A stretch of 64,000 bases of DNA, taken from NCBI GenBank assembly GCA_016188455.1, contig JACPHR010000010.1, forward strand, positions 3,655 to 67,654, read 5' to 3'. The notes under the pieces were generated by a model, which saw only the letters and a program-made list of their open reading frames with translations, was not told the origin of the DNA and searched no databases. Origin of the DNA: Candidatus Tayloriibacteriota bacterium. GTDB taxonomy: Bacteria; Patescibacteriota; Minisyncoccia; Phycocordibacterales; SIBU01. The translations under genes and the position numbers were made by a program. Positions 544 to 57,000 of this stretch are shown one piece after another. Numbering within the stretch: the stretch's first letter is position 1; each line of letters begins with the position of its first letter.

Positions 544-2193
544 CTATGCGCTCTGTGTCCGATTGATATGCTCCCACTCGTAATTCCTAATGGCGCCGAC
601 TTTTTTGCCGGGGTTGAAAATGTTTAGGGGGTCAAAAATACGCTTGGTTTCTTCAAAAAGCTCGATTATCTCCGGAGAGTACATCAAAGGCAAAAAGGAG
701 CTGCGAATCAAGCCGTCGTTGTGCTCGCCACTAATGGTGCCTTTGAAATTTAAAACCAGCCGATAGACCTTGTCGGTAAGTTCTTTGATAATTGCCAGGC
801 TTTCCGGTTTGCTCAGGTTCATCAAGGGAATAATGTGGAAATTGCCGTCGCCCACGTGCCCCGCCACCGTGTAAGTGATTGGGTACTTGGAAAGGATGGC
901 GTTGAGCTTCGGCAGAAACTCCGGCAAAAATTCCGGCCGCACCACGAAGTCGTCAATGAAGGGCGCGGTGCGGAGATTCCTCATGTGCTGGCGCAGGAGA
1001 TTGAAACTCTCGCGCCTGAAAGTCCAGTATTTTTTGGCCTCGGCTTCGTCGCGGGCGATTTTGGTTTTCAGGCCGAAAGGCAAAAGGGATTCTTGGGCGG
1101 CGGCGGCCTTGGCCGCCGCCGCCTCTTGCGTGTCCGCCGTAAACTCGGCAATCAAAATGAGCTTGGGCACGCCGCCGGTAAGCGCCATAAAAAACTCCGG
1201 CAAAAATTGAATCGCCAGTTTGAGCAAACTGCCGTTTAATTTTTTGACAATGGCCGGAAAAAGCTTGAGCGCCACTTTGAGCGTGTGGTCGTCAAACGAT
1301 TCAAAACTTTCGGGCTGGAATTGAAGGACATGGTTGGTAATTTCGGCGAGCGGCCGCAGACTAGGCAAAAACATGATAAGCAAGGACGAGAAAGGCTTGG
1401 GCGCCACCAGCCGAAACTTCACTTCGGTAATGATGCCGAGAGTGCCCTGCGAGCCGACAATGAGCTTGGTCAGGTCAAAAAGGCCTTTTTCTTTGTCGTA
1501 AACGTTCCAAAGAAAGTAACCGGCCGAATTTTTTGAAACCGCCGGCTTGGCTTTTTTCAGAAGGTCGTAATTTTTAACGACCAGCTCAAACATTTGCCGG
1601 CAGACTTCGCCGAAAAAATCCCGCCGGCCGCGCGCTTTTTCCAATTCCGGAATAGTGAGTGGCTGAAAAACGTATTCCCCGCCGTCCGAGAGGACCGTCT
1701 TCACCTGCCGGACGTAATTTTCGGTTTTGCCGTAGGTCAGAGTTTTCTCGCCGCCGGCGTTATTGGCCACCATGCCTCCCACGGTGCAAAGGTCGCGCGA
1801 AGCCGGATAGGAAGGCATCCAAAGGCCGCGCTTCAAAGTTTCCCGCTCAAAATCGCGGTAGTAAACGCCCGGCTCGGTGACGGCGTAGCCCGCGCCCACT
1901 GCTTTGACGTGATTAAAATGCGGCAAAAAATCCACTACGATTGATTCGGTCAAAGGTCCGCCGGTCATATCGGTGCCGGCCGAGCGGACAGTGAGAGAAA
2001 TTTTCCCGCCCTCCCGCTTCTTTCTGGCGGCAAAGGCCACCAAGTTTTTAACGTCATAAACATCCCGCGGCGCCACGACCAGAGCCGGTTTGACTTCAAA
2101 AATACTGGCGTCGTGACTGGCTGCCGCGAGCGTTTTTTCGTCTGAGCGCACTTCGCCTTTGAAAAATTTTTTTATTTCAGGCGCGTAATCCAT
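544..2193 (-). CDS. FAD-linked oxidase (GlcD / D-lactate dehydrogenase family)
   Basis: PCMH-type FAD-binding region (SAGTDMTGG) and a C-terminal FAD-oxidase domain ending DP.NIFNPGK. The track ORF starts at a TTG (2226); the first ATG, at Met12, gives 2193. Confidence 0.8.
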   Translation of the reverse strand: MDYAPEIKKFFKGEVRSDEKTLAAASHDASIFEVKPALVVAPRDVYDVKNLVAFAARKKREGGKISLTVRSAGTDMTGGPLTESIVVDFLPHFNHVKAVGAGYAVTEPGVYYRDFERETLKRGLWMPSYPASRDLCTVGGMVANNAGGEKTLTYGKTENYVRQVKTVLSDGGEYVFQPLTIPELEKARGRRDFFGEVCRQMFELVVKNYDLLKKAKPAVSKNSAGYFLWNVYDKEKGLFDLTKLIVGSQGTLGIITEVKFRLVAPKPFSSLLIMFLPSLRPLAEITNHVLQFQPESFESFDDHTLKVALKLFPAIVKKLNGSLLKLAIQFLPEFFMALTGGVPKLILIAEFTADTQEAAAAKAAAAQESLLPFGLKTKIARDEAEAKKYWTFRRESFNLLRQHMRNLRTAPFIDDFVVRPEFLPEFLPKLNAILSKYPITYTVAGHVGDGNFHIIPLMNLSKPESLAIIKELTDKVYRLVLNFKGTISGEHNDGLIRSSFLPLMYSPEIIELFEETKRIFDPLNIFNPGKKVGAIRNYEWEHINRTQSA

Positions 2194-2307
2194 AAGGTAA
2201 ACATACCAATCTACTAATACATACAAATCTGCGAATAACTACGAATAAGAAAAGGCCGAATTAGCAGTTATTAGTAGTATTAGTATAATTCGTATATTAG
2301 TATGACG

Positions 2308-9600: not shown

Positions 9601-11113
9601 GCTCAAAGTTTGAAGGGAAGGGATTGTAGGTAACGGTGGTGCAGAGATTCCCCGTGCTGTCAGCGGTTTTTCGCAACACAACGGTCGTTGTCGCAGTTGA
9701 CGTATTCAACCAAATAATAGTGGTAGTGGAAACCGACTTGTTGAAACCAAAACCTAAAAAGGTCATGTCAATCGGCGCGTTGGTCATGCCGTTGCCCGGA
9801 AACGAGCCTTGCACTTGAAGGGTTGAAATGTCCGTGCCGCCGCCGCCGAAAGGAAACTCATGGGGACTGAAACTGTTCTGGGGATTAGCCGTTGTTTGCG
9901 CCACGAATTCGGTTTTGTTGAAATTCTTGTCAAAGCCGTTGCCTTTTGTGGAATCAACGCCGCCCGTGGCCATTGAGGCGGCAGTGGAGGTGGCAGAGGG
10001 ATAACCTGTTGCAAGACGCTCCAGCGATGAACCGTCTTCAGCGAGAGCGGTGGCGCACGGCGTAGAACTTGCCTCTCCGTTCTCGCAATTGCCAGTCTTT
10101 TGCGCTCCCCAGCCGACATAATCAATGGCCGTTGAAGTGGCGAAGGTGCCTAAACTGCTTGTGGCAATGGATACGCCGCCGTCCGCCAGGATAATGTTGA
10201 AACTGGAAGTGGCAAAGACCGCGTCAAGCGGCACCGAACCGCCGTAGCCGATCTGATTACCAATGAGAAAATAACCATACGACGGGATGACTTTTCTGTA
10301 ATAGGTCAGAGGTATGCCGGGCGTTGAACTGCCGGTGGTATAAAAGGAATGGAGCTGAAGACCTAAGTCGGAGAGGTTAATGTCCGCCTCGCCGGAGTTG
10401 TAAAGCTCCACGAACTCATCGCTGGCGTTCACGGCTGTACCCGACTTGACTTCGCTGATTTTAACCGTGGCGTTTTGATTGAGAGTAACTTTTTTATTTG
10501 AGGCCAGGGCCGTACCGACGACGCTCCCCCCAGCCGTGGTTGAAGCATAGCCCGTCTGGAGTTGCGCGTTGAACGCGTGGCCGTTGGTAATACCGGTTGT
10601 ACCAGTGGTGGATGCCACTAGATAGAAAGTGGTAGGGCTACTGCCAATACTTTCCGCGGTCGTCGGCGTAAGAACAATGAGAGTACTGTTCACAAGCGGG
10701 GTAGTAGAAGCCGCGCCAGCGATAAACGTATCGCTATCAAGCTGAAAACCAGGCTGGCCACCCGCCTCTTTCCAGAGCGAAACGCGAGATATCTCCCCTT
10801 GGGACATGGTGGTTGAAGCGACGATCTGGACTCCCACTTTGCTCAGGGTGTCATTGCCAGTAGACTGGACTAGTTGAAAGTTAAGCAGTGGAATAATCGC
10901 GCCGCCGCCAATGGTGGTAGACGCAAAGAAAGCATCCGTAGGCGGCGCCACTTCGGTAATGGCGGCCGAAGCGGTGGAAGCGCCGAGCGCCAAAAGCAAA
11001 GCGGCAGACAGAAAAATACACGCCTTAAGAGCGTGCTTTCTAACTCGCGACCCCAACCTAAAAGCTCTTGCCATTAAAATGCTCCCGGACCCGACATTGG
11101 AAATGAAAATCAT
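3686..11113 (-). CDS. giant (2475 aa) secreted cell-surface protein: signal peptide, LTD (lamin-tail) domain, Ig/FN3-like Thr/Ser-rich repeats, two C-terminal peptidoglycan-binding (PG_binding_1-like) domains
   Basis: N-terminal signal peptide (LLLALGASTASA). LTD motif SDEFVELYNSG. FN3-like segment (GYYIYRD..). Poly-Gly linker. Two C-terminal repeats of G.RG.DV..LQ..L....GFFGP.T..A...FQ..G. A coiled-coil tail. The start could also be Met14 (11074). Confidence 0.85.
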   Translation of the reverse strand: MIFISNVGSGSILMARAFRLGSRVRKHALKACIFLSAALLLALGASTASAAITEVAPPTDAFFASTTIGGGAIIPLLNFQLVQSTGNDTLSKVGVQIVASTTMSQGEISRVSLWKEAGGQPGFQLDSDTFIAGAASTTPLVNSTLIVLTPTTAESIGSSPTTFYLVASTTGTTGITNGHAFNAQLQTGYASTTAGGSVVGTALASNKKVTLNQNATVKISEVKSGTAVNASDEFVELYNSGEADINLSDLGLQLHSFYTTGSSTPGIPLTYYRKVIPSYGYFLIGNQIGYGGSVPLDAVFATSSFNIILADGGVSIATSSLGTFATSTAIDYVGWGAQKTGNCENGEASSTPCATALAEDGSSLERLATGYPSATSTAASMATGGVDSTKGNGFDKNFNKTEFVAQTTANPQNSFSPHEFPFGGGGTDISTLQVQGSFPGNGMTNAPIDMTFLGFGFNKSVSTTTIIWLNTSTATTTVVLRKTADSTGNLCTTVTYNPFPSNFEPSAKCNLTASLSANTSYTFTVTSNVYDLSGNALDQDGFTPGSQSYTATFTTGAAGFTSANVTPPAVMGASPFRGSQNVPTNIGTTTIEFNQSTMDTTTFTNTNIFLSGGLTLGSFSFSTSTGKNILSAGIRGTVAANTQYTLTVGTGVRTLQGIALSTAYTTTFTTGGSTDATAPTIVGVLPTPSTTIAANTNDFVFTFDDNIDSATATSGAVTLGISGGANLPGSVRYDPVSKEGHFTASNVLPVGQTIVLTLKGGALKNISGTALAANVTRSWTVEAANSDISGPAILFVNADEFTVAVTFSEAVNKTDATTLANYTLTVGGVAQTLSALAGHTLTYDESTRTAKLSGLRLTSGAAVTVSATNIKDMSGNLTTTAPMSGSCTVSSATGAGGTGGFVGPGSFTGTTFGEIKDFSASGIGFMPPVSIRPSTSFISASSTYSFELPVAKQIDDGGSIVITLPSSSDFGLCCVATTSAKNPFLASVNSDINGSSDGTIGISAIATSSTAKTITLTLKATGSGITGTRKSGNDEHDFLKFSLADMVNPSIPKGMDSSGYVLDIKSKKSDGTLLESFSGNPIYIGGGAAGGGAVTTIRGTVSGNGGNLTGATIHLMSPQTGPIDAVTDSTGLFTFSNLPVGSQFLTNNFGGGSHYMLFTDPFVSGVSDADGATTTAFFGNTMPTPVQATSSSIITRNFALTATSSAINFTVRLTAAANTFTATENVDVFAGGPGQFVVRTVTPGASALTASTLTVIPIPQFNGSWGIGIGPAMPKGTSGGFSGPPPMPNWSMPKAINVTVTGCPSACVSSVNSFATTSNTFTISTANKTISGVLKDGSGNSIANAMVFAFSPNTDSGGGLGGNTQTSTSGTFSIKVVAGSYVVGAYSPGIGESKKVTVVMDSSGTDVFYIDGSPTASTGSSGANPFILKMVKPGYTITGQVTDGTNPVGNAPVFAYRTDGPGRADAMTDSSTGNYTLYVDGTAANPTTWKVNSFIPGFGPMAEQTVTIAGASQSSINFAPSSSQSFSIYSGNIYEDLDDNNKYATTTEAIVGAVIRLSNSTSVNEGVSGADGAFSIRVPSASGYTIRDIFSPSYGRLAAYNSAGTAIGTIDLSASSTNQYIRVPVRSTVNFTIKDSDGNPLVVSKAFVDLFDKTTGLGNHIEITNASTTSLLIASSTTPSIRAYIQGIPPANISVASDGAQTTVSSGNLSVSHATEAVKITVNTSSTGAALSNIAGTVYKTAATAGNELDGAWIQFVDQTNGVQFGAQATSTGGYSIKAVNGTYQVLVSKPQYVASPVTVTVSGTTTQNFIMTASSLTISGTVTAGGVAAANSFVRAGKIGGGQAITQTDTSGAYTLNVTPGNWRVFAAADGYAEGASASNPVTVNSSQTGINVALTTASSLSSKLATSNTFTDTSAGSFSDASVNTKVNLDANALGASGNSSYITAKETSNYPNTSSVNIIGSKAKDISAFSGGSQVTNLQTGKKADIELTYTKAELTSSSITSTTAVNKLTVMSYSADKGDWETLSTVPTYKDSTGAAVASPSADLSNVSSVTFAAQGTHFSAYALSSQVGVSPPDTPGGLTATAGVTDGSPIALSWGTVSTAEGYYIYRDTSSTGSFPLLANISGGSTLSYSNTSVTAGTTYYYKISAYKSSGASESAASSAVSATVSANAGNAAPGGGGGGGTGAPAPRAQKIYPDGTVVYLDEVGAAAKIAELDKKFKTSTPAPAAVTVPAASVAQASATARLVSPVFNKDLTRGARGEDVKRLQALIAVEQTGFFGPLTEKALKAFQLKHGVIKSEKSAGAGKLGPATRAKINEVFKENAQVPAAPPAAPTPSSGVSAGAPNITRGLVRGARGDDVKALQIFLSADKELYPEGDATGFFGPATQRAVGRFQVKYGIANPGDSGYGDVGPKTRAQLKAMSAASAPAATVETSAGASSASKAAREALEKQIDEAIKRVQELQKQLNSSTAR

Positions 11114-13867: not shown

Positions 13868-14283
13868 AAGAATGTTGTACCGATACCAATATGCTAATGG
13901 TACTAATGATACGAATAACCACCAATGAATACCAAGAAGTATATCGTACTTGGAGAAAAGAAAAAAGCAGCGGATTAGACTGCTTCCCAAGCCTCATCAG
14001 CTATGGCCTTAACGCAAACGGCGATAATCCGGTCGGCCGCGGCATCGCCTAAAATCCGCTTGCCTATGCCGGCAATGCCGACAACATTTGAATCGCGAAA
14101 ATCGCCTCTGGCTTTCTTCAAGCCCAGAGTCAGGGCTGTTTGGAAATATTTCTCGGCTTCTTGCCGTTGCCGCGCCTTGACAAGAGTTAGAAGAGACAGC
14201 TGTAAATCCAACATTTCCATAAGACTTCCTTTGGGTTGATTGTGATTGGTACAAGCAAAAACCGTACATATGGTATAAAATGG

Positions 14284-15759: not shown

Positions 15760-16412
15760 GATTCACTTCACCCCCTTTCTTGTTTCTTTACTGCCTTCAT
15801 TTAAGCACCTCGGCCTTCAAAATGCAAACTCTTTGGCGACCTTACCGCTTATCCACTTTGTATGCACAGTTTTTCCCCTTGAGCAACCTTGCCAAAAAAA
15901 CCAGCCGTGTTACTCTGCCCACCGGAAGTAGTTCAAGCCAAGCACTAAATGAAGGACAGAAAAATCGCCATCGCGCTCGCCAAAAGCGCCGCCCGCGCTC
16001 GCGAGCTGGAACATCACCCCAAACTCAAGGGACAAACAATTCATTTCACCGTTGAATCAAGAACCGCGAAAGCGAGCGATTTGATAACTCGGCCAAACCG
16101 GTTCGCGTTGATTTGACCGCGGGATGCCCCGCCCCGTTCGCCGCGGCGAACGGGGCGGGGCGGAAGGTTCGCTTTCATTGTGCCACAATCAGTGGCACTT
16201 TTCTTTTGCGAAAATTTATCTCTTCGCTTTACATCTCGCCTTACAGCTTCACCCTTTCCTTCATACACCAATTATACACGGCCGTGTAGGATTGGTGTAT
16301 ACAACTTCACTGCGAGGTTTGCAAAAAATTTTGATTGCGCCGCGCCCTGTTAGATATTTTCAGTTCAGCTAAACTTGCCTCAAACGGCAATATGTGTAAA
16401 TCTTAATCAATC

Positions 16413-22025: not shown

Positions 22026-22224
22026 ACGCTCGTCAAGGCGACCCACCCAACTCGCTGCAGACGCATCTGCGTCGAAGCGGGCGGGAGTCAGGTAGGCAAA
22101 ATCACGCGGGGCAATCTATGAGAGTTTGATCCCCTCCTCGCCCACCACTTGTGCTAGATTTTCTCCCGCGTCACCATCCCCACGTGACTACTGCTCAGTT
22201 CACAAGCAAGATTAATTCCCCGCT

Positions 22225-22258
22225 CTTATATTCTAATTCGCGCGAATTAGAATATAAG
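22225..22258. promoter_or_regulatory. 34-bp perfect palindrome (ArsR-type operator copy / bidirectional terminator) downstream of arsR-like gene 1
   Basis: cttatattctaattcgcgcgaattagaatataag. Confidence 0.5.
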
Positions 22259-22268
22259 AAAAACAATG

Positions 22269-22529
22269 CTATAAAACCTTCAGCACTGATTGAATGACTG
22301 CGGGAGATTTGCCATTCAGAAAATAGTAAACCTCAAGAGCCTGCTGGCGCTTGTCCAGAATATCAGCGCGAGAGAGTATATTGAGATGCTTCGAGGTCGA
22401 GGTGAATGACAGTTTAATCTCATCGGCGATTTCTCCCACTGTTGCCTCATGTTCCTTTTTCAGAAATGCAACAATGGCAAGACGTCTGCGATTCGCCATG
22501 GCTTTCAATACTCGCTCATATTCTTTCAT
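22269..22529 (-). CDS. ArsR/SmtB-family winged-HTH transcriptional repressor (paralog 1)
   Basis: 86 aa. RLAIVAFL..TVGEIADEIKLSFTSTSKHLNIL motif. 69 percent identical to the paralog at 23659. Confidence 0.7.
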   Translation of the reverse strand: MKEYERVLKAMANRRRLAIVAFLKKEHEATVGEIADEIKLSFTSTSKHLNILSRADILDKRQQALEVYYFLNGKSPAVIQSVLKVL

Positions 22530-22553
22530 GGTACTATATATTATACCGGTACT

Positions 22554-22575
22554 TTCTAATTCGCGCGAATTAGAA
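22554..22575. promoter_or_regulatory. 22-bp perfect palindromic operator in the divergent arsR-like-1 / miaA promoter region
   Basis: ttctaattcgcgcgaattagaa, about 25 bp upstream of the arsR-like start. A tatatat -10-like sequence lies between. Confidence 0.55.
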
Positions 22576-22602
22576 AATGATGAATTTGTGGATAAGCATC
22601 AC

Positions 22603-23589
22603 ATGGAGGCGAGTTTTGAGAAATACATGAGAAGAGCTGATAAAATTATCATTATTGCTGGGCCGACGGCGGTCGGAAAAAGCACGCTCGCCGTTAAGAT
22701 TGCAAAGAAATTCGGCGGAGAGATTGTTTCAGCCGATTCGCGGCAGGTCTATCGCGGATTAAACATCGGCACGGGAAAAATTACCAAAAAAGAAATGTGC
22801 GGAGTACCGCATCATTTGCTTGACGTGGCGAGCCCGCGTCGCAGATTCAGCGTGGTGGAGTATCAAAAGCTCGCCCGACAAAAAATCAAGGATGTTTTGT
22901 CTATGGGCAAGCTCCCCATCATCTGCGGCGGGGCCGGTTTCTACATTGAAGCCGTCGCGGACAATGTGGCCCTGCCCGACGCGCCGCCGAATGAAAAACT
23001 CCGCGCTCGGCTCCGAAAAGAAACTCCTGAAACTCTGCTGAACCTGCTGATGAAACTTGACCCGGCCCGAGCCGAAAACATTGACCGAAAAAATCCCCGC
23101 CGGCTGATTCGGGCGATTGAGGTCGCCCGGTCTCTCGGCTCCGTTCCTTCTCCTCTTCCTCTTCAACATTCATACGTTCCCTGCCTTGCCGGCAGGCAGG
23201 CTAGGAATGTAGGAATGTCAAAGAAAGAATTCAACGTACTCTGGATCGGGCTTACCCTGCCTCCGGCGGAACTGAAAAGGAAAATTGCTATTCGCTTATT
23301 CGCGCGAATTAGAAAAGGTATGATACAAGAAGCCCGGCGGCTTCACAAAAACGGCCTCTCGTGGAAACGAATGGAGGAGCTGGGTCTTGAGTATCGCCAC
23401 CTCGCGCGCTACCTGCGAAATAAAACGTCAAAACTGGAAATGACTGATAAATTGCAGACAGAAATCTGGCGCTACGCCAAGCGCCAGCTAACCTGGTTCA
23501 AACGCAACCGGCGAATCAGGTGGTTCCAGCCAAACCAAACGGAAGAAATTAAAACGTTGGTTAAAAACTTCCTGTCAAAATCAAAATGA
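22603..23589 (+). CDS. miaA: tRNA dimethylallyltransferase
   Basis: P-loop IIIIAGPTAVGKST and the SADSRQVYRGLNIGTGK motif. The track ORF has a spurious N-terminal extension running antisense to the arsR-like gene. Carries a lineage-specific insert around 23165-23300 that includes palindrome-derived sequence. Confidence 0.85.
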   Translation: MEASFEKYMRRADKIIIIAGPTAVGKSTLAVKIAKKFGGEIVSADSRQVYRGLNIGTGKITKKEMCGVPHHLLDVASPRRRFSVVEYQKLARQKIKDVLSMGKLPIICGGAGFYIEAVADNVALPDAPPNEKLRARLRKETPETLLNLLMKLDPARAENIDRKNPRRLIRAIEVARSLGSVPSPLPLQHSYVPCLAGRQARNVGMSKKEFNVLWIGLTLPPAELKRKIAIRLFARIRKGMIQEARRLHKNGLSWKRMEELGLEYRHLARYLRNKTSKLEMTDKLQTEIWRYAKRQLTWFKRNRRIRWFQPNQTEEIKTLVKNFLSKSK

Positions 23590-23658: not shown

Positions 23659-23919
23659 TTAGAGAACAGAAATAAGATATTTAATAACAGGCACTTGTAA
23701 GTTGGTGATTTTATAAAACATTTGAAGGCTGACTTGCTCTTTTTCAAGAATTTCTGCGGCACTTAGAATAAGCAAATGTTTAGAAGTTGATGTGAAAGAA
23801 AGCTTGATGTTCTCTGCAACTGCACCAACTGACGCGACTTTCTTTTTCTTGAGGAAAGCCAGAATCGCTAACCGTCTTTTGTTCGCCACTGCCTTCAATT
23901 GTCTTTCGAGTTTTATCAT
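23659..23919 (-). CDS. ArsR/SmtB-family winged-HTH transcriptional repressor (paralog 2)
   Basis: 86 aa. RLAILAFL..SVGAVAENIKLSFTSTSKHLLIL. Confidence 0.7.
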   Translation of the reverse strand: MIKLERQLKAVANKRRLAILAFLKKKKVASVGAVAENIKLSFTSTSKHLLILSAAEILEKEQVSLQMFYKITNLQVPVIKYLISVL

Positions 23920-23937
23920 CCCTATTTTTTATTTATC

Positions 23938-23969
23938 TTATTGTCTAATTCGCGCGAATTAGACAATAA
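23938..23969. promoter_or_regulatory. 32-bp perfect palindromic operator upstream of arsR-like gene 2
   Basis: ttattgtctaattcgcgcgaattagacaataa, about 20 bp upstream of the start. Confidence 0.55.
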
Positions 23970-23992
23970 ATTAATTATTTTGAGGCATTTTC

Positions 23993-24154
23993 GGCGGGAG
24001 CTGGAGGAATCGGTCACAACTCTCGTTCTCCCGTCGGAGAACTCGGTCGCGACCCCGCCTCGTTCTCGCTCGGAACTCGCGAGATACTCCGGCTTCCGCT
24101 TCCTCTCGCGACCCAAGCAGTTGGCTCGCTCAACTCCCCATTCGGCCGCACTCA
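23993..24154 (-). repeat. family B element (~140 bp) plus 21-nt duplicate of the tRNA-Trp 3-prime end
   Basis: ggcgggagctggaggaatcgg at 23993-24013 repeats 24155-24175. The intervening sequence is ~70 percent identical to 28317-28442. Confidence 0.55.
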
Positions 24155-27398: not shown

Positions 27399-27436
27399 TA
27401 TTCTACCATCTTGGCGATCGCCAAGATGGTAGAATA
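27399..27436. promoter_or_regulatory. 38-bp perfect palindrome (family G) downstream of the wHTH/Cas2-like gene
   Basis: tattctaccatcttggcgatcgccaagatggtagaata. Confidence 0.5.
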
Positions 27437-27457
27437 GCGTTTCAACCTTCTTCAAAT

Positions 27458-28057
27458 TCAAATGACGGGCCGAAGAGTTCCAGTTTGGCCAACCTGAAAA
27501 ATTTCAACGCACTTTATGAGGCGCAATCTGTATAAATCGTCAAGAAATTCCTGGGGAATTTTAACTCTTCCCATCCAAAAACTTTTTTGCACCATCTTCA
27601 GACCCAAATGCTTAAGCGCCTCGCGCAACCAGTCACGCTTTCTTTTCTCCTTTTGTGGGACGTCAAAAGCCACGATGGTTAAATGCTCACCCGACTGCCG
27701 TGGATACTCTATCAAAGGAAACCGGGCTGAAATTTGCAACTTCAGTCTGCGTTCGGCGTCTTTTCCGCGAGCAGTGATTGATAACAGTGTTTTATCGGCA
27801 TTTTTGCTTATGGCAATCAAACCGTCATGCTTTAACTTTGAAATCAATTTCTGGTATCTCAGTACAAGCTCTTTCTCTCCTACTGGAAGAGGGCGTTTAT
27901 TACTCCTCTTCTTCTGCCTTTCTCTGAGAACATAGCGGATTCTTCCCGGCGACGCGCCGTATCCGGCAATAAGAATGGCTTCGCACAGTTCTAGAGATTC
28001 TACTGCCATTTTACCGAGTGTCTGAAGAATATAAAGTGTAATGTGTCCTTTTTTCAT
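27458..28057 (-). CDS. winged-HTH + Cas2/VapD-like-fold C-terminal domain protein (PaaX-like architecture), paralog 1
   Basis: C-terminus HLTIVAFDVPQKEKRKRDWLREALKHLGLKMVQKSFW follows the Cas2 pattern (b-strand ..YDV, R..L...L...G..Q.SV.). N-terminal wHTH-like region. The paralog at 56238 shares IV.FD.PQK....RD.LRE.L..L....LQKS. ATG start, with a tataat box immediately upstream. Confidence 0.45.
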   Translation of the reverse strand: MKKGHITLYILQTLGKMAVESLELCEAILIAGYGASPGRIRYVLRERQKKRSNKRPLPVGEKELVLRYQKLISKLKHDGLIAISKNADKTLLSITARGKDAERRLKLQISARFPLIEYPRQSGEHLTIVAFDVPQKEKRKRDWLREALKHLGLKMVQKSFWMGRVKIPQEFLDDLYRLRLIKCVEIFQVGQTGTLRPVI

Positions 28058-28074
28058 TATAGTATTTTGTTATA

Positions 28075-28108
28075 TTCTACTAAAAAGGCGATCGCTAAGA
28101 TAGTAGAA
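28075..28108. promoter_or_regulatory. family G palindrome (imperfect copy) in the promoter region of the wHTH/Cas2-like gene
   Basis: ttctactaaaaaggcgatcgctaagatagtagaa, 18 bp upstream of the start codon. Confidence 0.45.
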
Positions 28109-28168
28109 AAACACTTTAGCGAGGGAAAAGTGGAACATTTTAAGTACTGCTCGCCATCTCAAATTTTG

Positions 28169-28252
28169 TGCCGAGGGTGGGACTCGAACCCACACGGTCT
28201 AAACGACCCCGAGATTTTAAGTCTCGTACGGCTACCATTACGTCACCTCGGC
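28169..28252 (-). tRNA. tRNA-Leu (anticodon TAA), long variable arm
   Basis: Acceptor GCCGAGG/CCTCGGC. Anticodon loop cTTAAaa. Variable stem GGTC/GACC. Canonical T-arm GTGGG-TTCGAGT-CCCAC. Confidence 0.85.
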
Positions 28253-28297: not shown

Positions 28298-28442
28298 AGG
28301 CCACGGTGGGACTTGGTTACAGCTCTCGTCGCGCCGTCGCGCTCCTCGGCCGCGACCCCGCCTCGCTGCCGCTCTGAAACTCGCGGCGTGCTCCGGCTTG
28401 CAATTCCACACGCACGCAAAGCAGTTTGCGTGCTCGTCGCCT
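28298..28442 (-). repeat. family B element (~126 bp) plus 19-nt duplicate of the tRNA-Cys 3-prime end
   Basis: gaggccacggtgggacttg at 28298-28316 repeats 28444-28462. The insert is homologous to 24014-24154. Confidence 0.55.
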
Positions 28443-28849: not shown

Positions 28850-28915
28850 TAGGATTTAAGAATCAGTCGGGCCCCACCCCGCCCGCCGCGGGCGGGGTGG
28901 GGCCGCCAGTCTTGT

Positions 28916-31650: not shown

Positions 31651-32925
31651 ATGTCAAACAAGCGAATTTATCTCGATTGCGCCGCCACAACTCCGCTTGA
31701 CCAGCGGGTTTTGAAAGTTATGCTGCCCTATTTCGGGAAAAAGTTCGGTAATCCAAGTTCGATTCACGCCGAAGGGGTAGATGCGAAGAAAGCGCTTGAA
31801 GCGGCGCGCAAGAGTGTCGGGGGAATTCTCCGCGCCCGAGCCGACGAAATGATTTTTACCTCCGGCGGCACCGAGTCAAACAACCTTGCCATCCATGGCG
31901 TTCTGAACGCCATCACGGATATACGCAGATTGGACGCAAACAAACGCGGATTGAATATCAGCGTGCATCAGCGTAGTCATCAGCGTGCATCCGCGGAAAA
32001 ATTGCATATGGTGACGACTAACATTGAACACTCGTCCGTGCTGGAGCCGATACGGGCGCTCGAGCGGCGCGGCGTGGCCGTAACCTACGTGCCGATTGAG
32101 CCAAACGGTATCGTGGACCCTAAAAAAATCGCCGCCGCTTTGCGTCCGGAAACAGTTTTGGTTTCGGTCGGCTACGCCAATAATGAAATCGGCACCATAC
32201 AACCGATTTCTAAAATTGCCCGCGAGATTCGCATTTTTAGAAATCGGCTGAAAGCACAAATCACAAATCCCAAATTCAAACTTTCAAATTTCCAAACCCC
32301 GATTTTCCATACGGATGCTTGCCAAGCTCCCTTGTATCTAGATTGCAACATGGACAAGCTCGGCGTTGACCTTTTGACGCTCGACGGCCACAAAATGTAC
32401 GGGCCCAAGGGGGTCGGCGCCCTCTACATAAGGCACGGCACCCCTATTGCGCCAATGCTTTTTGGCGGCGGCCAGGAAAGCAGTCTTCGTTCAACAACGG
32501 AAAATGTGGCGGCTATCGTCGGTTTCGCTCGGGCGCTTGAGATGGCCGCGTCAAAACGCGACAAAGAATCCGCGCGTCTCACGAAGCTCCGCGACTTCTG
32601 TCATTCCAACATTCTTGAGAATGTTGGAATGACAGAAGTGATAATTAATGGCGATATGAAAGAACGGCTGCCGAATAACCTAAACCTCTCCTTCCCGGGC
32701 ATTGATACCGAAATGCTTCTGCTGCGGCTTGACGCTTTGGGCATCGCCTGCTCCACAAAAAGTTCCTGTCTGCGAGATGAGCCGGGTTCCTATGTCGTCC
32801 TGGCCTTGGGCGGCGGTGAAGCTCGGGCAAAATCAACTCTTCGCTTCAGCTTCGGCCGCGAAACGACCAAAAAAGATATTGATTATCTAATTATCCAACT
32901 TGTCCGCGTTATACAGCAATCTTGA
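31651..32925 (+). CDS. cysteine desulfurase (class V aminotransferase, IscS/NifS-like) with two lineage-specific inserts
   Basis: LDCAATTPLD N-terminus and the PLP-lysine region GHKMYGPKGVGALYIR. Inserts at ~31915-31990 (with direct repeats) and ~32225-32290 (CA-rich). Confidence 0.85.
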   Translation: MSNKRIYLDCAATTPLDQRVLKVMLPYFGKKFGNPSSIHAEGVDAKKALEAARKSVGGILRARADEMIFTSGGTESNNLAIHGVLNAITDIRRLDANKRGLNISVHQRSHQRASAEKLHMVTTNIEHSSVLEPIRALERRGVAVTYVPIEPNGIVDPKKIAAALRPETVLVSVGYANNEIGTIQPISKIAREIRIFRNRLKAQITNPKFKLSNFQTPIFHTDACQAPLYLDCNMDKLGVDLLTLDGHKMYGPKGVGALYIRHGTPIAPMLFGGGQESSLRSTTENVAAIVGFARALEMAASKRDKESARLTKLRDFCHSNILENVGMTEVIINGDMKERLPNNLNLSFPGIDTEMLLLRLDALGIACSTKSSCLRDEPGSYVVLALGGGEARAKSTLRFSFGRETTKKDIDYLIIQLVRVIQQS

Positions 32926-33116
32926 TTTTTTACCGCACACATTAACTTTTCACTATAGTGAAAAGTTAATGTGTGCGGTAATCTTGTATAAGTTAATGCT
33001 TGCTTTTTCTAACTTCAGAACTTTTTCCGTCTTGCCAAACCTGTGAAGCGGAACAAACCGGCAACTCCCTCAAAAATGTCTTGCATTTTTCACGGAGCTG
33101 ATTTATTATTCGACAC

Positions 33117-43930: not shown

Positions 43931-44154
43931 CCTGACGGCAGGCAGGCCGCACCAATCCTAGGGCGAGCGCGTGTCCCGAATAGGGACATCCCTTGTTGGG
44001 CGAAGCGAGAGCATGTATGCCCTCTGGTGCTGGGGTTATTTCCGGCCGTGAAATACCGGCCGCTCACGATCTCAAGACCTCTCCTTAACTATGACTATAA
44101 TGTTTACGGCTCACTTAAAGCTTTCCACACAGAATCTTTTCTCTATTTTGCCGT

Positions 44155-44190
44155 CCAACTTTAAGATTGCTATAGCAATCTTAAAGTTGG
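44155..44190. repeat. 36-bp perfect palindrome
   Basis: ccaactttaagattgcta|tagcaatcttaaagttgg. Confidence 0.5.
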
Positions 44191-44251
44191 ATAACATTTT
44201 TAGGGTCACGCACGAATCTTTCCGTTTAATATCATCGTTAGCCATTAGAGA

Positions 44252-44509
44252 CTACTTTATGATTGAGTATTCAAACGTAAAAGGTGATTCGATCTCTGTT
44301 GGTTTTTCTTGAAGCTGAACATTAAACGCGGAAAAAATAGCGTCTCGTATTTGAGATTCTATTTCAATAGATGTCGGATTGGGGTTAGTGTTGGAAGAGA
44401 TAATGCCAGGCACTTCGTTGCATACGGCAGTCCACCCCTCTTCATCAAAATTAACCTTAAATGAAAGTCCGCCGATATTTTCTATCTGTTTGCCCACTCG
44501 CAACTGCAA
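44252..44509 (-). CDS. small HicB-like (UPF0150-type antitoxin-like) protein, TTG start
   Basis: 85 aa. FKVNFDEEGWTAVCNEVPGIIS....T..E..IRDAI fits the HicB N-domain pattern. The start codon lies inside a 50-bp palindrome. Confidence 0.3.
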   Translation of the reverse strand: MQLRVGKQIENIGGLSFKVNFDEEGWTAVCNEVPGIISSNTNPNPTSIEIESQIRDAIFSAFNVQLQEKPTEIESPFTFEYSIIK

Positions 44510-44555
44510 ATATACAGGTCAGACCTATATATATAGGTCTGACCTGTATATTTGC
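44506..44555. promoter_or_regulatory. 50-bp near-perfect palindrome overlapping the start of the HicB-like gene
   Basis: gcaaatatacaggtcagacctatat|atataggtctgacctgtatatttgc. Confidence 0.5.
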
Positions 44556-53608: not shown

Positions 53609-53755
53609 AGTGCTGTAATTCTAGCAAAAATAGAGGCCTTTGGCCATACCAATCTACTAATGAATACGAATCTGCGAATAACTACCAATGTGATATGCGT
53701 GGGGGTATTATTCGTAGTTATTGGCGGTATTGGCAACATTCGTATATTGGTATAT

Positions 53756-54013: not shown

Positions 54014-54109
54014 ACTAATATACTATACTGCTAATAACTGCGAATACTCCCGGTAGACAACATTAAGTAGTTATTCGCAGATTCGTACTAATTCGTATAT
54101 TGGTATCGG

Positions 54110-56168: not shown

Positions 56169-56187
56169 ATGAACCCTCCTTTATCTC

Positions 56188-56227
56188 ATATAGATACGAT
56201 GGTAATTATATGAGATAAATGATAAAA
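56188..56227. promoter_or_regulatory. palindrome (13-bp arms, 14-nt spacer) immediately upstream of wHTH/Cas2-like paralog 2
   Basis: tttatctcatata-gatacgatggtaat-tatatgagataaa. Confidence 0.45.
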
Positions 56228-56237
56228 TTCCGAGTAA

Positions 56238-56813
56238 ATGGGGGAAAAACCTAAAAGCGTGAAAAGACTTCGGGTCGGCACTACCCAAAAACAAATTCTT
56301 CTCTTGTTGCTTGCCGGAACGGCAATGGGGCTGTCAGGGTCGCCAAAAACCTTTTTCAAAATACTTTCTTCTCTGCCGGAAGCTTTAAGAGAAATAGAAG
56401 AAAAAAATGTTCGCCGAGCGATTCAAAACCTCTATAGATCGCGCCTGGCGGAAAAACAAGAACACCCTGACGGCACCATGACACTGGCGCTGACTGATGA
56501 AGGAAAGCGCGTGGCTCTACGCTACGACATCAACAAGATGAAGGTGGTAAAACCTCGGAAATGGGACGAGAAGTGGCGAATCGTGACGTTCGATATTCCT
56601 CAAAAAGCCAGGTGGATTCGCGACAGTCTCCGAGAGCATCTGCGGCAACTTCAATTTTATGAACTGCAGAAATCGGTCTTCGTTCATCCGTTTGATTGTA
56701 AAAATGAAATTGACTATATCGTTGAATTCTACAACATTCGCCGCCACGTGCGTTTCATTATCGCCGACTCAATCGACAATGAGCTGCACATCATGCATTG
56801 CTTAGGGCTCTAA
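56238..56813 (+). CDS. winged-HTH + Cas2/VapD-like-fold C-terminal domain protein, paralog 2
   Basis: WRIVTFDIPQKARWIRDSLREHLRQLQFYELQKSVFVHPFDCKNEIDYIVEFYNIRRHVRFI, Cas2-like. Paralog of the gene at 27458. Confidence 0.45.
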   Translation: MGEKPKSVKRLRVGTTQKQILLLLLAGTAMGLSGSPKTFFKILSSLPEALREIEEKNVRRAIQNLYRSRLAEKQEHPDGTMTLALTDEGKRVALRYDINKMKVVKPRKWDEKWRIVTFDIPQKARWIRDSLREHLRQLQFYELQKSVFVHPFDCKNEIDYIVEFYNIRRHVRFIIADSIDNELHIMHCLGL

Positions 56814-57000
56814 AAACATCCCTTTCCTTCTTGCTCGTATACCAACGATGGTTGTTATGTGAGCCAAAAGTAACGTCAGTAACGTAACGTGGTTCACCGA
56901 AGGTGATTTAAAAGTGATTCAAAAGTCATTCACCGGCAGCTTTCCTTACCTTAATTAAAACGCGAGTCAAGCACGCGGCAAGGCCAGGCCATGATATTTC

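What the first reader, a model, noticed from the sequence alone, without database searches (positions are those of the whole stretch)
27399..28108. Paralogous wHTH + Cas2-like-domain proteins, one bracketed by long family G palindromes, with no CRISPR array or cas1
ORFs at 27458..28057 and 56238..56813 share an N-terminal winged-helix-like region and a C-terminal domain with the Cas2/VapD pattern: b1 IV.FD.P, then R..LRE.L..L, then LQKS.F. This architecture resembles PaaX-type regulators but in a minimal ~190-200-aa form. Paralog 1 is flanked by a perfect 38-bp palindrome (27399-27436) and a related promoter-proximal copy (28075-28108). A third copy of that palindrome lies at 39802-39836 in the tRNA island. 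Paralog 2 has its own distinct palindrome at 56188-56227. The function of a Cas2-like nuclease fold fused to a DNA-binding domain is unclear. It could be a regulator, a toxin-like module or a defence component.
Basis: partly seen in the sequence, partly recalled or inferred. Interest (0 to 1): 0.6.

Follow-up and report, generated by a model that had tools for sequence, protein, structure and literature searches.

The report
Self-bracketed Cas2-like DNA-binding regulators
Two small genes annotated as "Cas2" or hypothetical most likely encode DNA-binding regulators of a large family in ultra-small (Patescibacteria) bacteria; each gene sits between two copies of its own ~38-bp palindromic binding site, and the Cas2-like domain appears to read the centre of that site.

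Summary
Both ORFs (27458-28057 minus, 56238-56813 plus) combine a PadR-like winged helix with a PaaX_M/Cas2-like domain. BOTH are bracketed by two copies of a cognate palindrome. The window has no CRISPR array, and none of the 20 ORFs I scanned is cas1.

The family is large: 725 clusters at 50% identity with E<=1e-30. In 73 homologous loci, such sites are about 100-fold enriched in the gene flanks. Each site has locus-specific arms around a universal core, CGATCG or CGGCCG.

Protein and site co-vary:
- The Q-x-S residue (K158) is K/R in 47/48 CGATCG loci and Q/G/H in 10/10 CGGCCG loci.
- Residue 138 (R or K) tracks core-flanking base 4 (A or G). An independent metagenome set reproduced this.
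- Recognition-helix residue 74 tracks arm base 11.

Asymmetric positions show no G·U or strand bias, so the target is duplex DNA rather than an RNA hairpin.

Best reading: minimal PaaX-like dimeric autorepressors in which the Cas2-like dimer reads the operator core. Why both gene ends carry a site is unresolved. A nuclease or recombination role is not excluded.

The parts
27458..28057 (-). Paralogue 1 gene, 199 aa: PadR-like winged helix (res ~1-110) plus Cas2-like/PaaX_M domain (res ~121-197). Key residues: K74, D132, K138, R141, R145, Q157-K158-S159.
   Evidence: Identical to an NCBI entry named 'CRISPR-associated endonuclease Cas2 [Candidatus Taylorbacteria bacterium]'.
27399..27436 (.). 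Site P1: perfect 38-bp palindrome. Its centre lies 40 bp downstream of the paralogue 1 stop codon, upstream of alr. Half-sites TTCTACC, core GCGATCGC.
28073..28110 (.). Site P2: imperfect copy. Its centre lies 34 bp upstream of the paralogue 1 start codon. Arms and core are kept and the spacer differs. It is followed by TATAAC/TATAAT-like hexamers before the ATG.
39800..39838 (.). Site P3: solo third copy in the tRNA island, between a duplicated tRNA-Tyr 3' end and tRNA-Lys. No family gene is adjacent.
56238..56813 (+). Paralogue 2 gene, 191 aa. Same two-domain architecture (FDIP at 118, QKS at 144). It belongs to a more conserved 184-aa subfamily.
56180..56219 (.). Paralogue 2 upstream site: TTTATCTCATATA-N14-TATATGAGATAAA with central ACGATGGT. 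Centre 38 bp from the ATG.
56834..56863 (.). Paralogue 2 downstream site: CTCGTATACCAACGATGGTTGTTATGTGAG. Same arms and same asymmetric core in the same orientation. Centre 36 bp after the stop codon.

Best explanation
Both genes most likely encode minimal PaaX-like, homodimeric, sequence-specific double-stranded-DNA-binding proteins, most likely autorepressors.

Proposed binding mode. The Cas2-like domains dimerise and sit on the dyad of a ~38-bp palindrome, where they read the 8-bp core N-CG(AT/GC)CG-N. The residue at the tip of the beta2-beta3 hairpin (K158, in the Q-x-S motif) reads the central dinucleotide. Residue 138, at the N-terminus of helix alpha1, reads the base flanking the core. 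The two PadR-like winged helices reach out to 7-bp half-sites 11-17 bp either side of the centre. This wide-spaced geometry resembles the E. coli PaaX operator TGATTC-N27-GAATCA.

Proposed function. The upstream site overlaps the gene's own -10-like promoter element, so binding there would shut off transcription (negative autoregulation). The downstream site, ~25-60 bp past the stop codon, is bound by the same protein. I infer that it either loops with the upstream site or acts as a roadblock or terminator that insulates the tiny gene from neighbouring transcription. A few extra solo sites per genome, such as 39800-39838 here, would extend control to other loci.

What is shown: the domain folds, the site anatomy, the family-wide bracketing, the protein-DNA covariation, and the DNA (not RNA) nature of the target.

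What is inferred: dimerisation, repression, and looping or insulation.
For: (1) Fold. PF20803 PaaX_M is hit above threshold in both proteins. The AlphaFold2 model has pLDDT 82.9. Foldseek's top hits are PaaX-type 3L09/8A39, PadR wHTH chains (probability ~1.0) and Cas2 chains.

(2) Bracketing is family-wide.
- In 73 loci from GTDB genomes and assemblies, sites with an exact CG(AT|GC)CG core and >=14/22 symmetric flanking positions occur at 2.1 per kb in gene flanks and 0.021 per kb elsewhere.
- 40/70 loci have an upstream site, 47/71 a downstream site, 30/68 both, and 15/68 neither.
- Within a locus, the upstream and downstream half-sites are 91% identical, against 32% between loci.
- Four orthologues of paralogue 2 carry related sites; three of them carry their own upstream/downstream pair, and the fourth has only an upstream palindrome within the flanks examined.

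(3) Protein-site signature. Symmetry is 0.92-1.00 at positions 11-17, 0.75-0.89 at positions 5-10, and at background beyond position 20. Position 4 is A in 125/176 half-sites.

(4) Covariation.
- Q-x-S residue: K/R in 47/48 CGATCG loci, Q/G/H in 10/10 CGGCCG loci. These fall in >=8 separate lineages whose nearest relatives are K + AT. Fisher p = 2e-10.
- In a separate metagenome set, 18 of 20 distinct proteins next to CGATCG sites could be scored, and all have K/R.
- Residue 138: R goes with A4 and K with G4, p = 3.5e-5. This was reproduced in the metagenome set: R-A 10/10 and K-G 6/7.
- Recognition-helix residue 74: K goes with C11 and R with A11, p = 2e-7.

(5) The target is DNA, not RNA. 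Asymmetric pairs show no G·T excess on the sense strand (18 vs 21 upstream, 17 vs 18 downstream), and more than half are transversion-type.

(6) Promoter overlap. A -10-like hexamer lies 11-30 bp gene-proximal to the upstream site centre in 25/40 loci, against 24/94 for the other three orientations (p = 7.6e-5).

(7) The wide-spaced inverted-repeat operator and autorepression are known properties of PaaX (PMC9493321).

(8) An unrelated ArsR-type regulator in the same window (22269-22529) is bracketed the same way, with site centres ~35 bp from the start and ~27 bp from the stop. Bracketing therefore looks like a regulator-gene design in this genome rather than a Cas2-specific trait.
Against: - No binding, dimerisation or expression data exist; the function is inferred.
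- The downstream site is not explained by regulation of the next gene. The next gene is convergent in 23 cases and co-directional in 23.
- At least 30 solo sites found in metagenomes lie in convergent, divergent and tandem intergenic regions, next to unrelated housekeeping genes. They do not define an obvious regulon or a promoter-only location.
- The spacer (positions 5-10) is more symmetric and more alike between the two copies (80%) than a simple two-half-site operator requires.
- The Cas2-type aspartate (D132) is invariant, although DNA binding alone does not obviously require it.
- The covariation tests treat loci as independent, so phylogeny inflates the p-values. This applies least to the Q-x-S pair.
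- 15/68 loci show no site under the strict rule.
- The simple promoter scan finds nothing convincing at the two window genes.
Confidence: 0.6

Rival explanations
1. Sequence-specific roadblock, insulator or architectural protein. The protein binds the palindromes as described, but its main job is not promoter repression. Bound sites at gene ends would stop read-through or antisense transcription, or organise DNA loops, in a compact genome. The two sites around its own gene are simply the best-conserved instance.
For: - Downstream sites occur equally with convergent and co-directional neighbours, 23 vs 23.
- Many solo sites sit 3-35 bp after stop codons, including between convergent genes.
- T-runs flank downstream sites in 30-47% of cases, against 10% on the gene-proximal side of upstream sites.
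- The ArsR-type gene in the window shows the same bracketing geometry.
Against: - Solo sites also occur in divergent regions and directly upstream of genes.
- Upstream sites are enriched for -10-like elements, which fits classical promoter occlusion.
- There are few solo sites per gene, roughly one to two in the metagenome sample. That is too few for a genome-wide termination system.
Confidence: 0.18
2. The Cas2-like domain is an active nuclease or recombinase that cuts or exchanges strands at the CG(AT/GC)CG core. The unit palindrome-gene-palindrome would then be a selfish, excisable or invertible cassette. It would be analogous to RAYT genes flanked by their REP palindromes, or to a gene between two lox/dif-like sites. 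Solo sites would be empty or relic sites.
For: - The gene is tightly bracketed by two near-identical sites whatever its neighbours are.
- The site layout (arms plus a 6-bp symmetric core with a palindromic central dinucleotide) resembles recombinase crossover sites. This comparison rests on my own knowledge.
- D132, equivalent to the Cas2 metal-binding Asp, together with R141, R145, Q157 and S159, is invariant. These residues lie on the same face as the two core-reading residues.
- One solo site (L100) is adjacent to a 52-bp relic of the gene's 3' end.
- Several paralogues occur per genome, each with its own site class.
Against: - No empty/occupied polymorphism was found among 49 solo and ~110 occupied loci.
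- Paralogues within a genome are old (about 30% identity), not recent copies.
- Close relatives L003 and L004 are syntenic.
- Solo copies are few, not REP-like in number.
- The family is absent from IMG/VR contigs.
- No nucleophile is conserved across both subfamilies. The conserved linker Tyr (Y118 of paralogue 1) aligns with Lys in paralogue 2.
- K158 is replaced by Q/G/H, so it sets specificity and is not catalytic.
- An ArsR-type gene without any Cas2 domain is bracketed in the same way.
Confidence: 0.1
3. The palindromes act as RNA (or single-stranded DNA) hairpins in the 5' and 3' untranslated regions. The protein would bind the hairpin as a monomer, with the winged helix on the stem and the RRM-like Cas2 domain on the apical loop, and would control mRNA stability, termination or translation.
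For: - Symmetry extends through the whole 38 bp, including the spacer.
- Several sites abut or overlap the stop codon, or lie within ~10 bp of the start codon.
- Cas2 and VapD relatives include RNases (own knowledge).
- The central-dinucleotide covariation could equally reflect loop reading.
Against: - Asymmetric pairs show no G·U enrichment and no strand bias, and most are non-wobble mismatches.
- Symmetry is strongest at positions 11-17 rather than uniform along the stem.
- Solo sites occur in either orientation context.
- PaaX relatives and PadR winged helices bind duplex DNA (own knowledge).
Confidence: 0.07
4. A genuine Cas2 of a degenerate or distant CRISPR-Cas system, or a VapD-like toxin or defence component.
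For: - NCBI and JGI name many members 'Cas2'.
- Paralogue 1 passes the TIGR01573 and PF09827 thresholds marginally.
- PADLOC Cas2 models match residues 126-166.
Against: - Only ~40 of ~90 Cas2 model positions match.
- PaaX_M scores higher.
- The domain is fused to a winged helix.
- No cas1, CRISPR array or partner gene is present in the window or in annotated neighbourhoods.
- Paralogue 2 falls below both Cas2 thresholds.
- There is no conserved neighbour that could serve as an antitoxin.
Confidence: 0.03

Closest known systems
PaaX, the phenylacetyl-CoA-responsive repressor of E. coli/Pseudomonas (PDB 8A39; relative 3L09)
   Same: - N-terminal winged helix followed by a Cas2-like middle domain (Pfam PF20803 hit; best Foldseek matches).
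- Dimeric repressor that autoregulates.
- Operator made of two short half-sites set very far apart (TGATTC-N27-GAATCA, PMC9493321), as here (7-bp half-sites 20 bp apart).
   Different: - No PaaX_C ligand-binding domain, so no obvious effector pocket.
- No hit to the PaaX N-terminal model.
- TIGR02277 scores 31 bits against a cutoff of 264.
- No paa genes nearby.
- Here the spacer contains a conserved core that co-varies with residues of the Cas2-like domain. No such contact has been described for PaaX in what I could find.
- The gene is bracketed by two sites.
- The Cas2-type FD(I/V)P and Q-x-S motifs are retained.
Cas2 (CRISPR adaptation protein; TIGR01573 / PF09827)
   Same: - Ferredoxin-like beta1-alpha1-beta2 start with the Asp at the end of beta1 and a Q-x-S-(V/F) strand.
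- Foldseek matches to Cas2 chains 6JHZ, 8IA4, 5ZYF, 3EXC and 2IVY.
- Cas2 is a dimer that lies along duplex DNA in the Cas1-Cas2 complex (own knowledge).
   Different: - Fused to a DNA-binding domain.
- No cas1 or CRISPR array.
- Appears to read a specific sequence rather than the backbone.
- Several divergent paralogues per genome.
PadR-family winged-helix regulators
   Same: The N-terminal ~110 residues superpose on PadR-type proteins (5ZI8, 4ESF, 1XMA; Foldseek probability ~1.0, TM to target ~0.6). The helix with the 'Y..L..L..DGLI' pattern precedes the wing.
   Different: - Dimerisation here is expected through the Cas2-like domain rather than a C-terminal helix.
- A basic insertion of ~12 residues precedes the recognition helix.
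- The operator is far longer.
RAYT transposase genes flanked by their REP palindromes
   Same: - A single-copy gene bracketed by two copies of a cognate palindrome.
- Additional intergenic copies elsewhere.
- Different gene classes in one genome, each with its own palindrome class.
   Different: - No HUH/Y1 domain.
- Only about one to two solo copies per gene rather than hundreds.
- No evidence of movement.

Membership tests
PaaX family (TIGR02277; Pfam PaaX N-terminal + PaaX_M + PaaX_C) | Central Cas2-like domain (PF20803 PaaX_M) | tested here: met
   38.7 bits (paralogue 1) and 78.3 bits (paralogue 2) against a cutoff of 24. All homologues listed carry PF20803.
PaaX family (TIGR02277; Pfam PaaX N-terminal + PaaX_M + PaaX_C) | C-terminal helical effector domain (PaaX_C) and a full-length equivalog score | tested here: not met
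   The proteins end right after the Cas2-like domain (199 and 191 aa). There is no PaaX_C hit at E<=1. TIGR02277 scores 31.4 bits against a cutoff of 264.55, for paralogue 2 only.
PaaX family (TIGR02277; Pfam PaaX N-terminal + PaaX_M + PaaX_C) | PaaX-type N-terminal winged helix | tested here: inconclusive
   No hit to the Pfam PaaX N-terminal model. Whole-chain Foldseek does align to 3L09 and 8A39 over 173-195 columns, but with weak E-values (8e-3 to 3e-2). The domain resembles PadR more closely.
PaaX family (TIGR02277; Pfam PaaX N-terminal + PaaX_M + PaaX_C) | Widely spaced inverted-repeat operator and autoregulation | tested here: inconclusive
   The site geometry is compatible (half-sites at +/-11-17), and the upstream site overlaps -10-like elements. 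Binding and repression were not measured.
PaaX family (TIGR02277; Pfam PaaX N-terminal + PaaX_M + PaaX_C) | Control of phenylacetate catabolism / response to phenylacetyl-CoA | tested here: not met
   No paa genes among the 20 window ORFs scanned with Pfam or in the Pfam-annotated neighbourhoods of seven homologues. Ligand response is not testable here.
Cas2 (TIGR01573 / PF09827) | Score above the curated threshold over the Cas2 model | tested here: inconclusive
   Paralogue 1: 31 vs 24.5 bits (TIGR01573) and 24.1 vs 23.8 bits (PF09827), covering only model positions ~2-43. Paralogue 2 is below both thresholds, at 22.2 and 21.6 bits.
Cas2 (TIGR01573 / PF09827) | Encoded with cas1 next to a CRISPR array | tested here: not met
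   No spaced-repeat array in the window. No Cas1 among 20 scanned ORFs. None in the annotated neighbourhoods of 7 homologues.
Cas2 (TIGR01573 / PF09827) | Stand-alone ~90-100-aa protein | tested here: not met
   The domain is the C-terminal half of a 190-200-aa fusion in all ~260 homologues listed.
VapD-type toxin | Sequence or profile similarity to VapD and a partner antitoxin gene | tested here: not met
   No VapD family appears among the Pfam, NCBIfam or PADLOC hits. No conserved neighbour gene.
RAYT/REP-like selfish palindrome system | Gene flanked by cognate palindromes | tested here: met
RAYT/REP-like selfish palindrome system | HUH/Y1 transposase domain and high-copy dispersed palindromes | tested here: not met
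   No Y1_Tnp hit. One solo copy in 64 kb of the window. About 30-49 solo sites against ~36 gene-adjacent loci in the metagenome scan.

The most novel reading that the evidence does not exclude
The Cas2-like dimer is catalytically active at the palindromic core, using the invariant Cas2-type Asp132 on the same face as the two core-reading residues. Palindrome-gene-palindrome would then be a new kind of minimal self-mobilising, excisable or invertible DNA cassette. Equivalently, it would be a sequence-specific Cas2-fold endonuclease, and a living example of a Cas2-fold protein that recognises palindromic repeats on its own.
Probability: 0.1. Interest if true: 0.9.

Novelty: new variant of a known kind. 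Interest (0 to 1): 0.6.

Why it matters
Gene regulation in Patescibacteria (the Candidate Phyla Radiation) is, to my knowledge, almost uncharted. I found no paper that links PaaX-like proteins to these organisms.

What this work adds:
- It defines a large family: 725 to 1,731 clusters at 50% identity. Public records label members 'Cas2', 'PaaX' or 'hypothetical'.
- It gives the family a binding-site model and a small, directly testable recognition code. K/R at Q-x-S goes with CGATCG, and Q/G/H with CGGCCG. R138 goes with A and K138 with G next to the core.
- It suggests a new role for the Cas2 fold as a sequence-reading head on the operator dyad.

Practical consequences:
- 'Cas2' annotations in CRISPR-poor lineages can be corrected.
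- Sites and regulons can be predicted from sequence in uncultivated bacteria.

Open question: both this family and an unrelated ArsR-type regulator in the same genome are bracketed by their own sites, and the reason is unknown.

Tried and rejected
- phmmer of both paralogues against all window ORFs found no third copy.
- Sequence searches of the PDB with either family profile reached only marginal Cas2 and MarR hits. PaaX structures were not reached, so I could not check residue by residue whether true PaaX keeps the Asp or the Q-x-S motif.
- The first alignment was too diverse for the locus scan. A narrower one was used, so paralogue counts per genome are underestimates.
- The IMG/VR scan returned no relatives.
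- Simple promoter and terminator scans at both genes were uninformative.
- A test for empty versus occupied sites, blasting solo-site flanks against gene-bearing loci, found no polymorphism. It found only a truncated-contig duplicate (L110 = L140) and one 52-bp gene relic (L100).
- Neighbours of solo sites were clustered to look for a common regulon. They are diverse housekeeping genes (PBP, DnaN, IleRS, cysteine desulfurase, RecR, GAPDH and others) with no theme.
- The tRNA search inside that script returned nothing and may have failed to parse, so tRNA adjacency of solo sites is untested.
- An Rfam search and RNA folding of the tRNA-island region near P3 found nothing beyond tRNAs.
- Literature searches for PaaX + Cas2-like, PaaX + CPR or Patescibacteria, and CGATCG palindromes returned nothing relevant except cyanobacterial HIP1 papers. 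I rejected a link to HIP1 or a restriction-modification system because the protein itself co-varies with the core.
Full report
**1. What is in the window**

The two ORFs exist as described. One is 27458..28057 on the minus strand (199 aa). The other is 56238..56813 on the plus strand (191 aa). They are distant paralogues, 30% identical over 114 aa with E 3e-9. phmmer against all window ORFs finds no third copy.

The palindromes around paralogue 1 are also real.
- The sequence at 27399-27436 is a perfect 38-bp palindrome, TATTCTACCATCTTGGCGATCGCCAAGATGGTAGAATA.
- 28073-28110 and 39800-39838 are imperfect copies that keep the outer arms and the GCGATCGC core.
- All three match TCTACYA-N6-CGATCG-N6-TRGTAGA exactly, with none found in shuffled sequence.

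An inverted repeat lies at 56180-56219, 38 bp (centre) from the ATG. A related copy lies at 56834-56863, 36 bp after the stop codon. Both have the same asymmetric centre, ACGATGGT, in the same orientation.

The window is ordinary housekeeping chromosome. It encodes SerRS, DprA, ParB, MiaA, Alr, IF2, RbfA, a cysteine desulfurase, TruD, ClpB, S1, Pth, signal peptidase, HisRS, FtsA and FtsZ. It has no CRISPR-like array, and none of the 20 ORFs scanned with Pfam is Cas1. Paralogue 1 is 100% identical to an NCBI protein of a Candidatus Taylorbacteria MAG that is named 'CRISPR-associated endonuclease Cas2'.

**2. What the proteins are**

- Both hit Pfam PF20803, 'PaaX central Cas2-like domain', clearly above threshold (38.7 and 78.3 bits against 24).
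- Both hit Cas2 models only over the first ~40 positions. Paralogue 1 is marginally above the TIGR01573 and PF09827 cutoffs, and paralogue 2 is below both.
- There is no PaaX_C domain. The PaaX equivalog model is far below threshold (31 against 264 bits).
- An AlphaFold2 model of paralogue 1, built on 33 homologues, has pLDDT 82.9. It shows an N-terminal winged helix: helices 2-15, 20-30, 36-48 and 61-76, and a wing at 80-93. [quoted passage not shown]
- Foldseek against the PDB puts PaaX-type structures (3L09, 8A39, 3KFW) first. PadR-family winged helices follow for the N-terminal half, and Cas2 chains for the C-terminal half. Whole-chain E-values are weak (8e-3 upward), as expected for two mobile domains.

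**3. The family**

- Each paralogue has its own subfamily of 184-200-aa proteins. The named source records are almost all Patescibacteria (Parcubacteria/Paceibacteria lineages), plus two MAGs labelled Gammaproteobacteria. Sources call members Cas2, PaaX, PadR or hypothetical.
- A profile search of 1.84 billion representatives finds 725 clusters at E<=1e-30 and 1,731 at E<=1e-10.
- Residues invariant within paralogue 1's subfamily include D132, P134, R141, W143, L144, R145 and S159. Q157 is usually Q but sometimes H. The D-x-P, R...R and Q-x-S motifs also recur in paralogue 2's subfamily.
- Several genomes carry two or three members, even with a narrow search pattern.
- None was found in IMG/VR viral contigs.

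**4. Bracketing by cognate palindromes is the rule**

I examined 73 loci: 70 from one-genome-per-species GTDB contigs and three from assemblies. In most of them, long zero-loop palindromes sit just upstream and just downstream of the gene.
- A strict rule was applied: an exact core CG(AT|GC)CG plus >=14 of 22 symmetric flanking positions. Under it, 88 sites fall in 41.6 kb of gene flanks, against 8 in 373 kb elsewhere. That is about a 100-fold enrichment.
- 40/70 loci have an upstream site, 47/71 a downstream site, 30/68 both, and 15/68 neither.
- Site centres lie a median of 40 bp from the start codon and 43.5 bp from the stop codon.
- The arms differ from locus to locus. Within a locus the two copies match: 91% identity at positions 11-17 and 80% at positions 5-10, falling to 38% just outside. 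Between loci the figure is about 32%.
- Four orthologues of paralogue 2 were also checked. Three carry their own upstream and downstream pair. The fourth has only an upstream palindrome within the flanks examined. Their centres are GCTATCGC, GCTGGAGC, GCGATCGC and GCTATAGC.

**5. Anatomy of the site**

I aligned 176 half-sites on the centre.
- Positions 1-3 are the core.
- Position 4 is A in 125 of 176 half-sites.
- Symmetry between the two arms is 0.75-0.89 at positions 5-10, 0.92-1.00 at positions 11-17, and at background from position 20.
- The arms are G-poor when read towards the centre.

This is the pattern of a protein site: two 7-bp half-sites 20 bp apart plus a central 8-bp element. 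It is not the pattern of a uniformly paired stem. The three copies in the window behave the same way: TTCTACY-AT and GCGATCGC are kept while the spacer varies. The E. coli PaaX operator is likewise two hexamers 27 bp apart, and PaaX represses its own promoter (PMC9493321).

**6. Protein and site co-vary**

This is the key result, and it comes in three pairs.

(a) The residue x of the Q-x-S motif is K158 in paralogue 1. In the model it sits in the turn between strands 153-156 and 159-164.
- It is K or R in 47 of 48 loci with a CGATCG core, and Q, G or H in all 10 loci with CGGCCG.
- Mutual information is 0.663 bit, essentially the maximum possible for this split.
- The ten CGGCCG loci fall into at least eight groups whose nearest relatives all have K and CGATCG. 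Fisher p = 2e-10.
- The only exception is L072, which has QLS with CGATCG.
- In paralogue 2's subfamily, the orthologue with QES has the centre CTGGAG, while QKS members have a central AT.

(b) Residue 138, near the N-terminus of helix alpha1, tracks the base next to the core.
- R goes with A (37 of 45) and K with G (8 of 13). On the A/G cases alone, p = 3.5e-5.

(c) Residue 74, in the helix that precedes the wing, tracks arm position 11.
- K goes with C (13 of 17) and R with A (15 of 20). On the C/A cases alone, p = 2e-7. The two states are interspersed among near relatives.

An independent sample came from a metagenome scan for the window's own site pattern, which returned 80 loci.
- Of the 20 distinct family proteins next to CGATCG sites, 18 could be scored and all have K/R at Q-x-S.
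- R138 goes with A in 10/10 and K138 with G in 6/7.

The p-values ignore phylogeny and are upper bounds on significance. Pairs (a) and (b), however, rest on repeated switches or on replication.

From the topology of the fold I infer that four elements lie at one end of the Cas2-like domain: the beta1-alpha1 loop (D132-x-P), the start of alpha1 (residue 138), the Arg pair, and the beta2-beta3 turn (Q157-K158-S159). That end would face the dyad. I could not inspect coordinates or model a dimer on DNA.

**7. Duplex DNA or RNA hairpin?**

If the palindromes worked as RNA hairpins, broken pairs should be enriched for G·U on the transcribed strand. They are not.
- G/T-type against A/C-type mismatches are 18 vs 21 at upstream sites and 17 vs 18 at downstream sites.
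- More than half of all mismatches are transversion-type.
- The mismatches cluster at positions 5-10 and 18-19.

This favours recognition of duplex DNA by a two-fold symmetric protein.

**8. What the sites do**

Upstream sites:
- They are enriched for a -10-like hexamer 11-30 bp from the centre on the gene side. It is present in 25/40 loci, against 24/94 for the other orientations (p = 7.6e-5).
- Most genes lack a Shine-Dalgarno sequence and have short A/T-rich leaders.
- This fits promoter occlusion, that is, negative autoregulation.

Downstream sites cannot be operators of the next gene.
- The next gene is convergent in 23 loci and co-directional in 23.
- T-runs flank downstream sites in 30-47% of cases, against 10% on the gene side of upstream sites. 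Some may therefore double as terminators.

Solo sites:
- At least 30 genuine solo sites of the window's site type exist in metagenomes.
- All are intergenic, often 3-35 bp past a stop codon.
- They occur in tandem, convergent and divergent settings, next to unrelated housekeeping genes.
- The ratio of solo to gene-adjacent sites suggests only one or two solo sites per gene.

ArsR parallel:
- An ArsR-type regulator gene in the same window (22269-22529, minus strand) is bracketed in the same way by its own palindrome family, TTCTAATTCGCGCGAATTAGAA.
- Its site centres lie ~27 bp past the stop and ~35 bp before the start. A second ArsR paralogue (23659-23919) has a copy upstream.

Bracketing therefore looks like a general design of small regulator genes in this genome. 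That argues for a regulatory or insulating role rather than a Cas2-specific enzymatic one.

**9. Mobility**

I found no positive evidence for movement.
- L003 and L004 (80% identical proteins) are syntenic.
- Paralogues within a genome are old.
- Blasting the flanks of 49 solo sites against all gene-bearing loci found no empty/occupied pair. One solo site (L100) has a 52-bp relic of the gene's 3' end beside it.

The sample is small and the genomes are divergent. The nuclease/recombination reading is therefore disfavoured but not excluded. The invariant Cas2-type Asp remains unexplained by simple binding, although it could read the invariant cytosines of the core.

**10. Comparison and verdict**

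- The closest known relatives are PaaX-type repressors (same two N-terminal domains, same wide operator logic, autoregulation). More distantly, the closest are Cas2 (same fold and motifs) and PadR regulators (the winged helix).
- These proteins are not PaaX. They lack the effector domain, fail the equivalog model and have no paa genes nearby.
- They are not CRISPR Cas2. They have no cas1 or array, they are fused, and the model match is only partial.
- In arrangement they resemble RAYT/REP, but they lack its enzyme and its copy number.
- I found no paper on this family.

I rate it a new variant of a known kind. It is a large, unstudied family of minimal PaaX-like DNA-binding proteins with three features that appear to be undescribed: a Cas2-like domain that reads the operator centre, a simple recognition code, and bracketing of the gene by its own sites.

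Confidence that these are sequence-specific duplex-DNA binders is high. Confidence that their main role is autorepression with self-insulation is moderate, at 0.6.

Noticed in passing
window 22224-22259, 22547-22580, 23930-23977 (also 23286-23319); genes 22269-22529(-) and 23659-23919(-): Two 86-aa ArsR-type (HTH_20/HTH_5) paralogues have their own palindrome family, TTCTAATTCGCGCGAATTAGAA. The first gene is bracketed by two copies at about the same distances from its start and stop as in the Cas2-like family. Bracketing of regulator genes by their own sites may be a general feature of this genome.
   Followed up: partly
window 32594-32639, 32930-32981, 44154-44191, 44506-44555, 39434-39469, 16126-16161, 28870-28904: The window holds many other long perfect palindromes (36-52 bp, zero or tiny loop) in intergenic regions, with unrelated sequences. 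Two different ones flank an 85-aa ORF at 44252-44509. One follows the cysteine desulfurase gene directly. Their readers and roles are unknown.
   Followed up: no
window 39563-39647 and 39767-39789; also L078 ~9700-9930: The 3' end of tRNA-Tyr (TTCGAATCCTGCCCGACGCACCA) is duplicated ~140 bp downstream, just before solo site P3. In L078 a tRNA is likewise followed by a duplicated, interrupted T-arm/acceptor end just before that locus's upstream site. This could be an att-like scar or a tRNA-derived element. Rfam finds nothing.
   Followed up: partly
window 40269-40675: Three tandem ~136-bp units (79% and 66% identity to the first) follow tRNA-Lys directly. Each begins with a hairpin, CCAGAAAAATCTTCA-N4-TGAAGATTTTTCTGG. 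There is no Rfam match above threshold.
   Followed up: partly
L001, L005, L006, L008, L011, L013, L020, L024, L034; window 28168-28252 and 40777-40863: Nine orthologues of paralogue 1 have tRNA-Leu(tag) within ~100-400 bp, mostly downstream and convergent. In the window the gene is next to tRNA-Leu(taa) instead, and tRNA-Leu(tag) lies ~950 bp from the solo site P3.
   Followed up: partly
window 24006-24075 and 28309-28378: A 70-bp G+C-rich repeat (74% identity) occurs beside tRNA-Trp and again between tRNA-Leu and tRNA-Cys. It is unusual in an otherwise A/T-rich intergenic background.
   Followed up: no
window 2184-2303, 13882-13926, 53645-53753, 54066-54106: Repeated A/T-rich blocks carry a short periodic motif (CATACCAATCTACTAAT... 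and ...ATTCGTATATTGGTAT). They lie in several intergenic regions upstream of genes and may be shared promoter or UP-like elements.
   Followed up: no
L100 ~1990-2045; L004 5940-5980: In L100, a solo site is followed by a 52-bp stretch 94% identical to the 3' end of a family gene in L131/L146, a relic of a lost copy. In L004, a third copy of the locus palindrome follows the MFS transporter gene downstream of the regulator, so that gene is bracketed as well.
   Followed up: partly
public annotation of P0001, P0027, P0089, P0147, P0158: NCBI's pipeline names many members 'CRISPR-associated endonuclease Cas2', presumably through the marginal TIGR01573 hit. This would inflate Cas2 counts in lineages that largely lack CRISPR-Cas.
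   Followed up: partly
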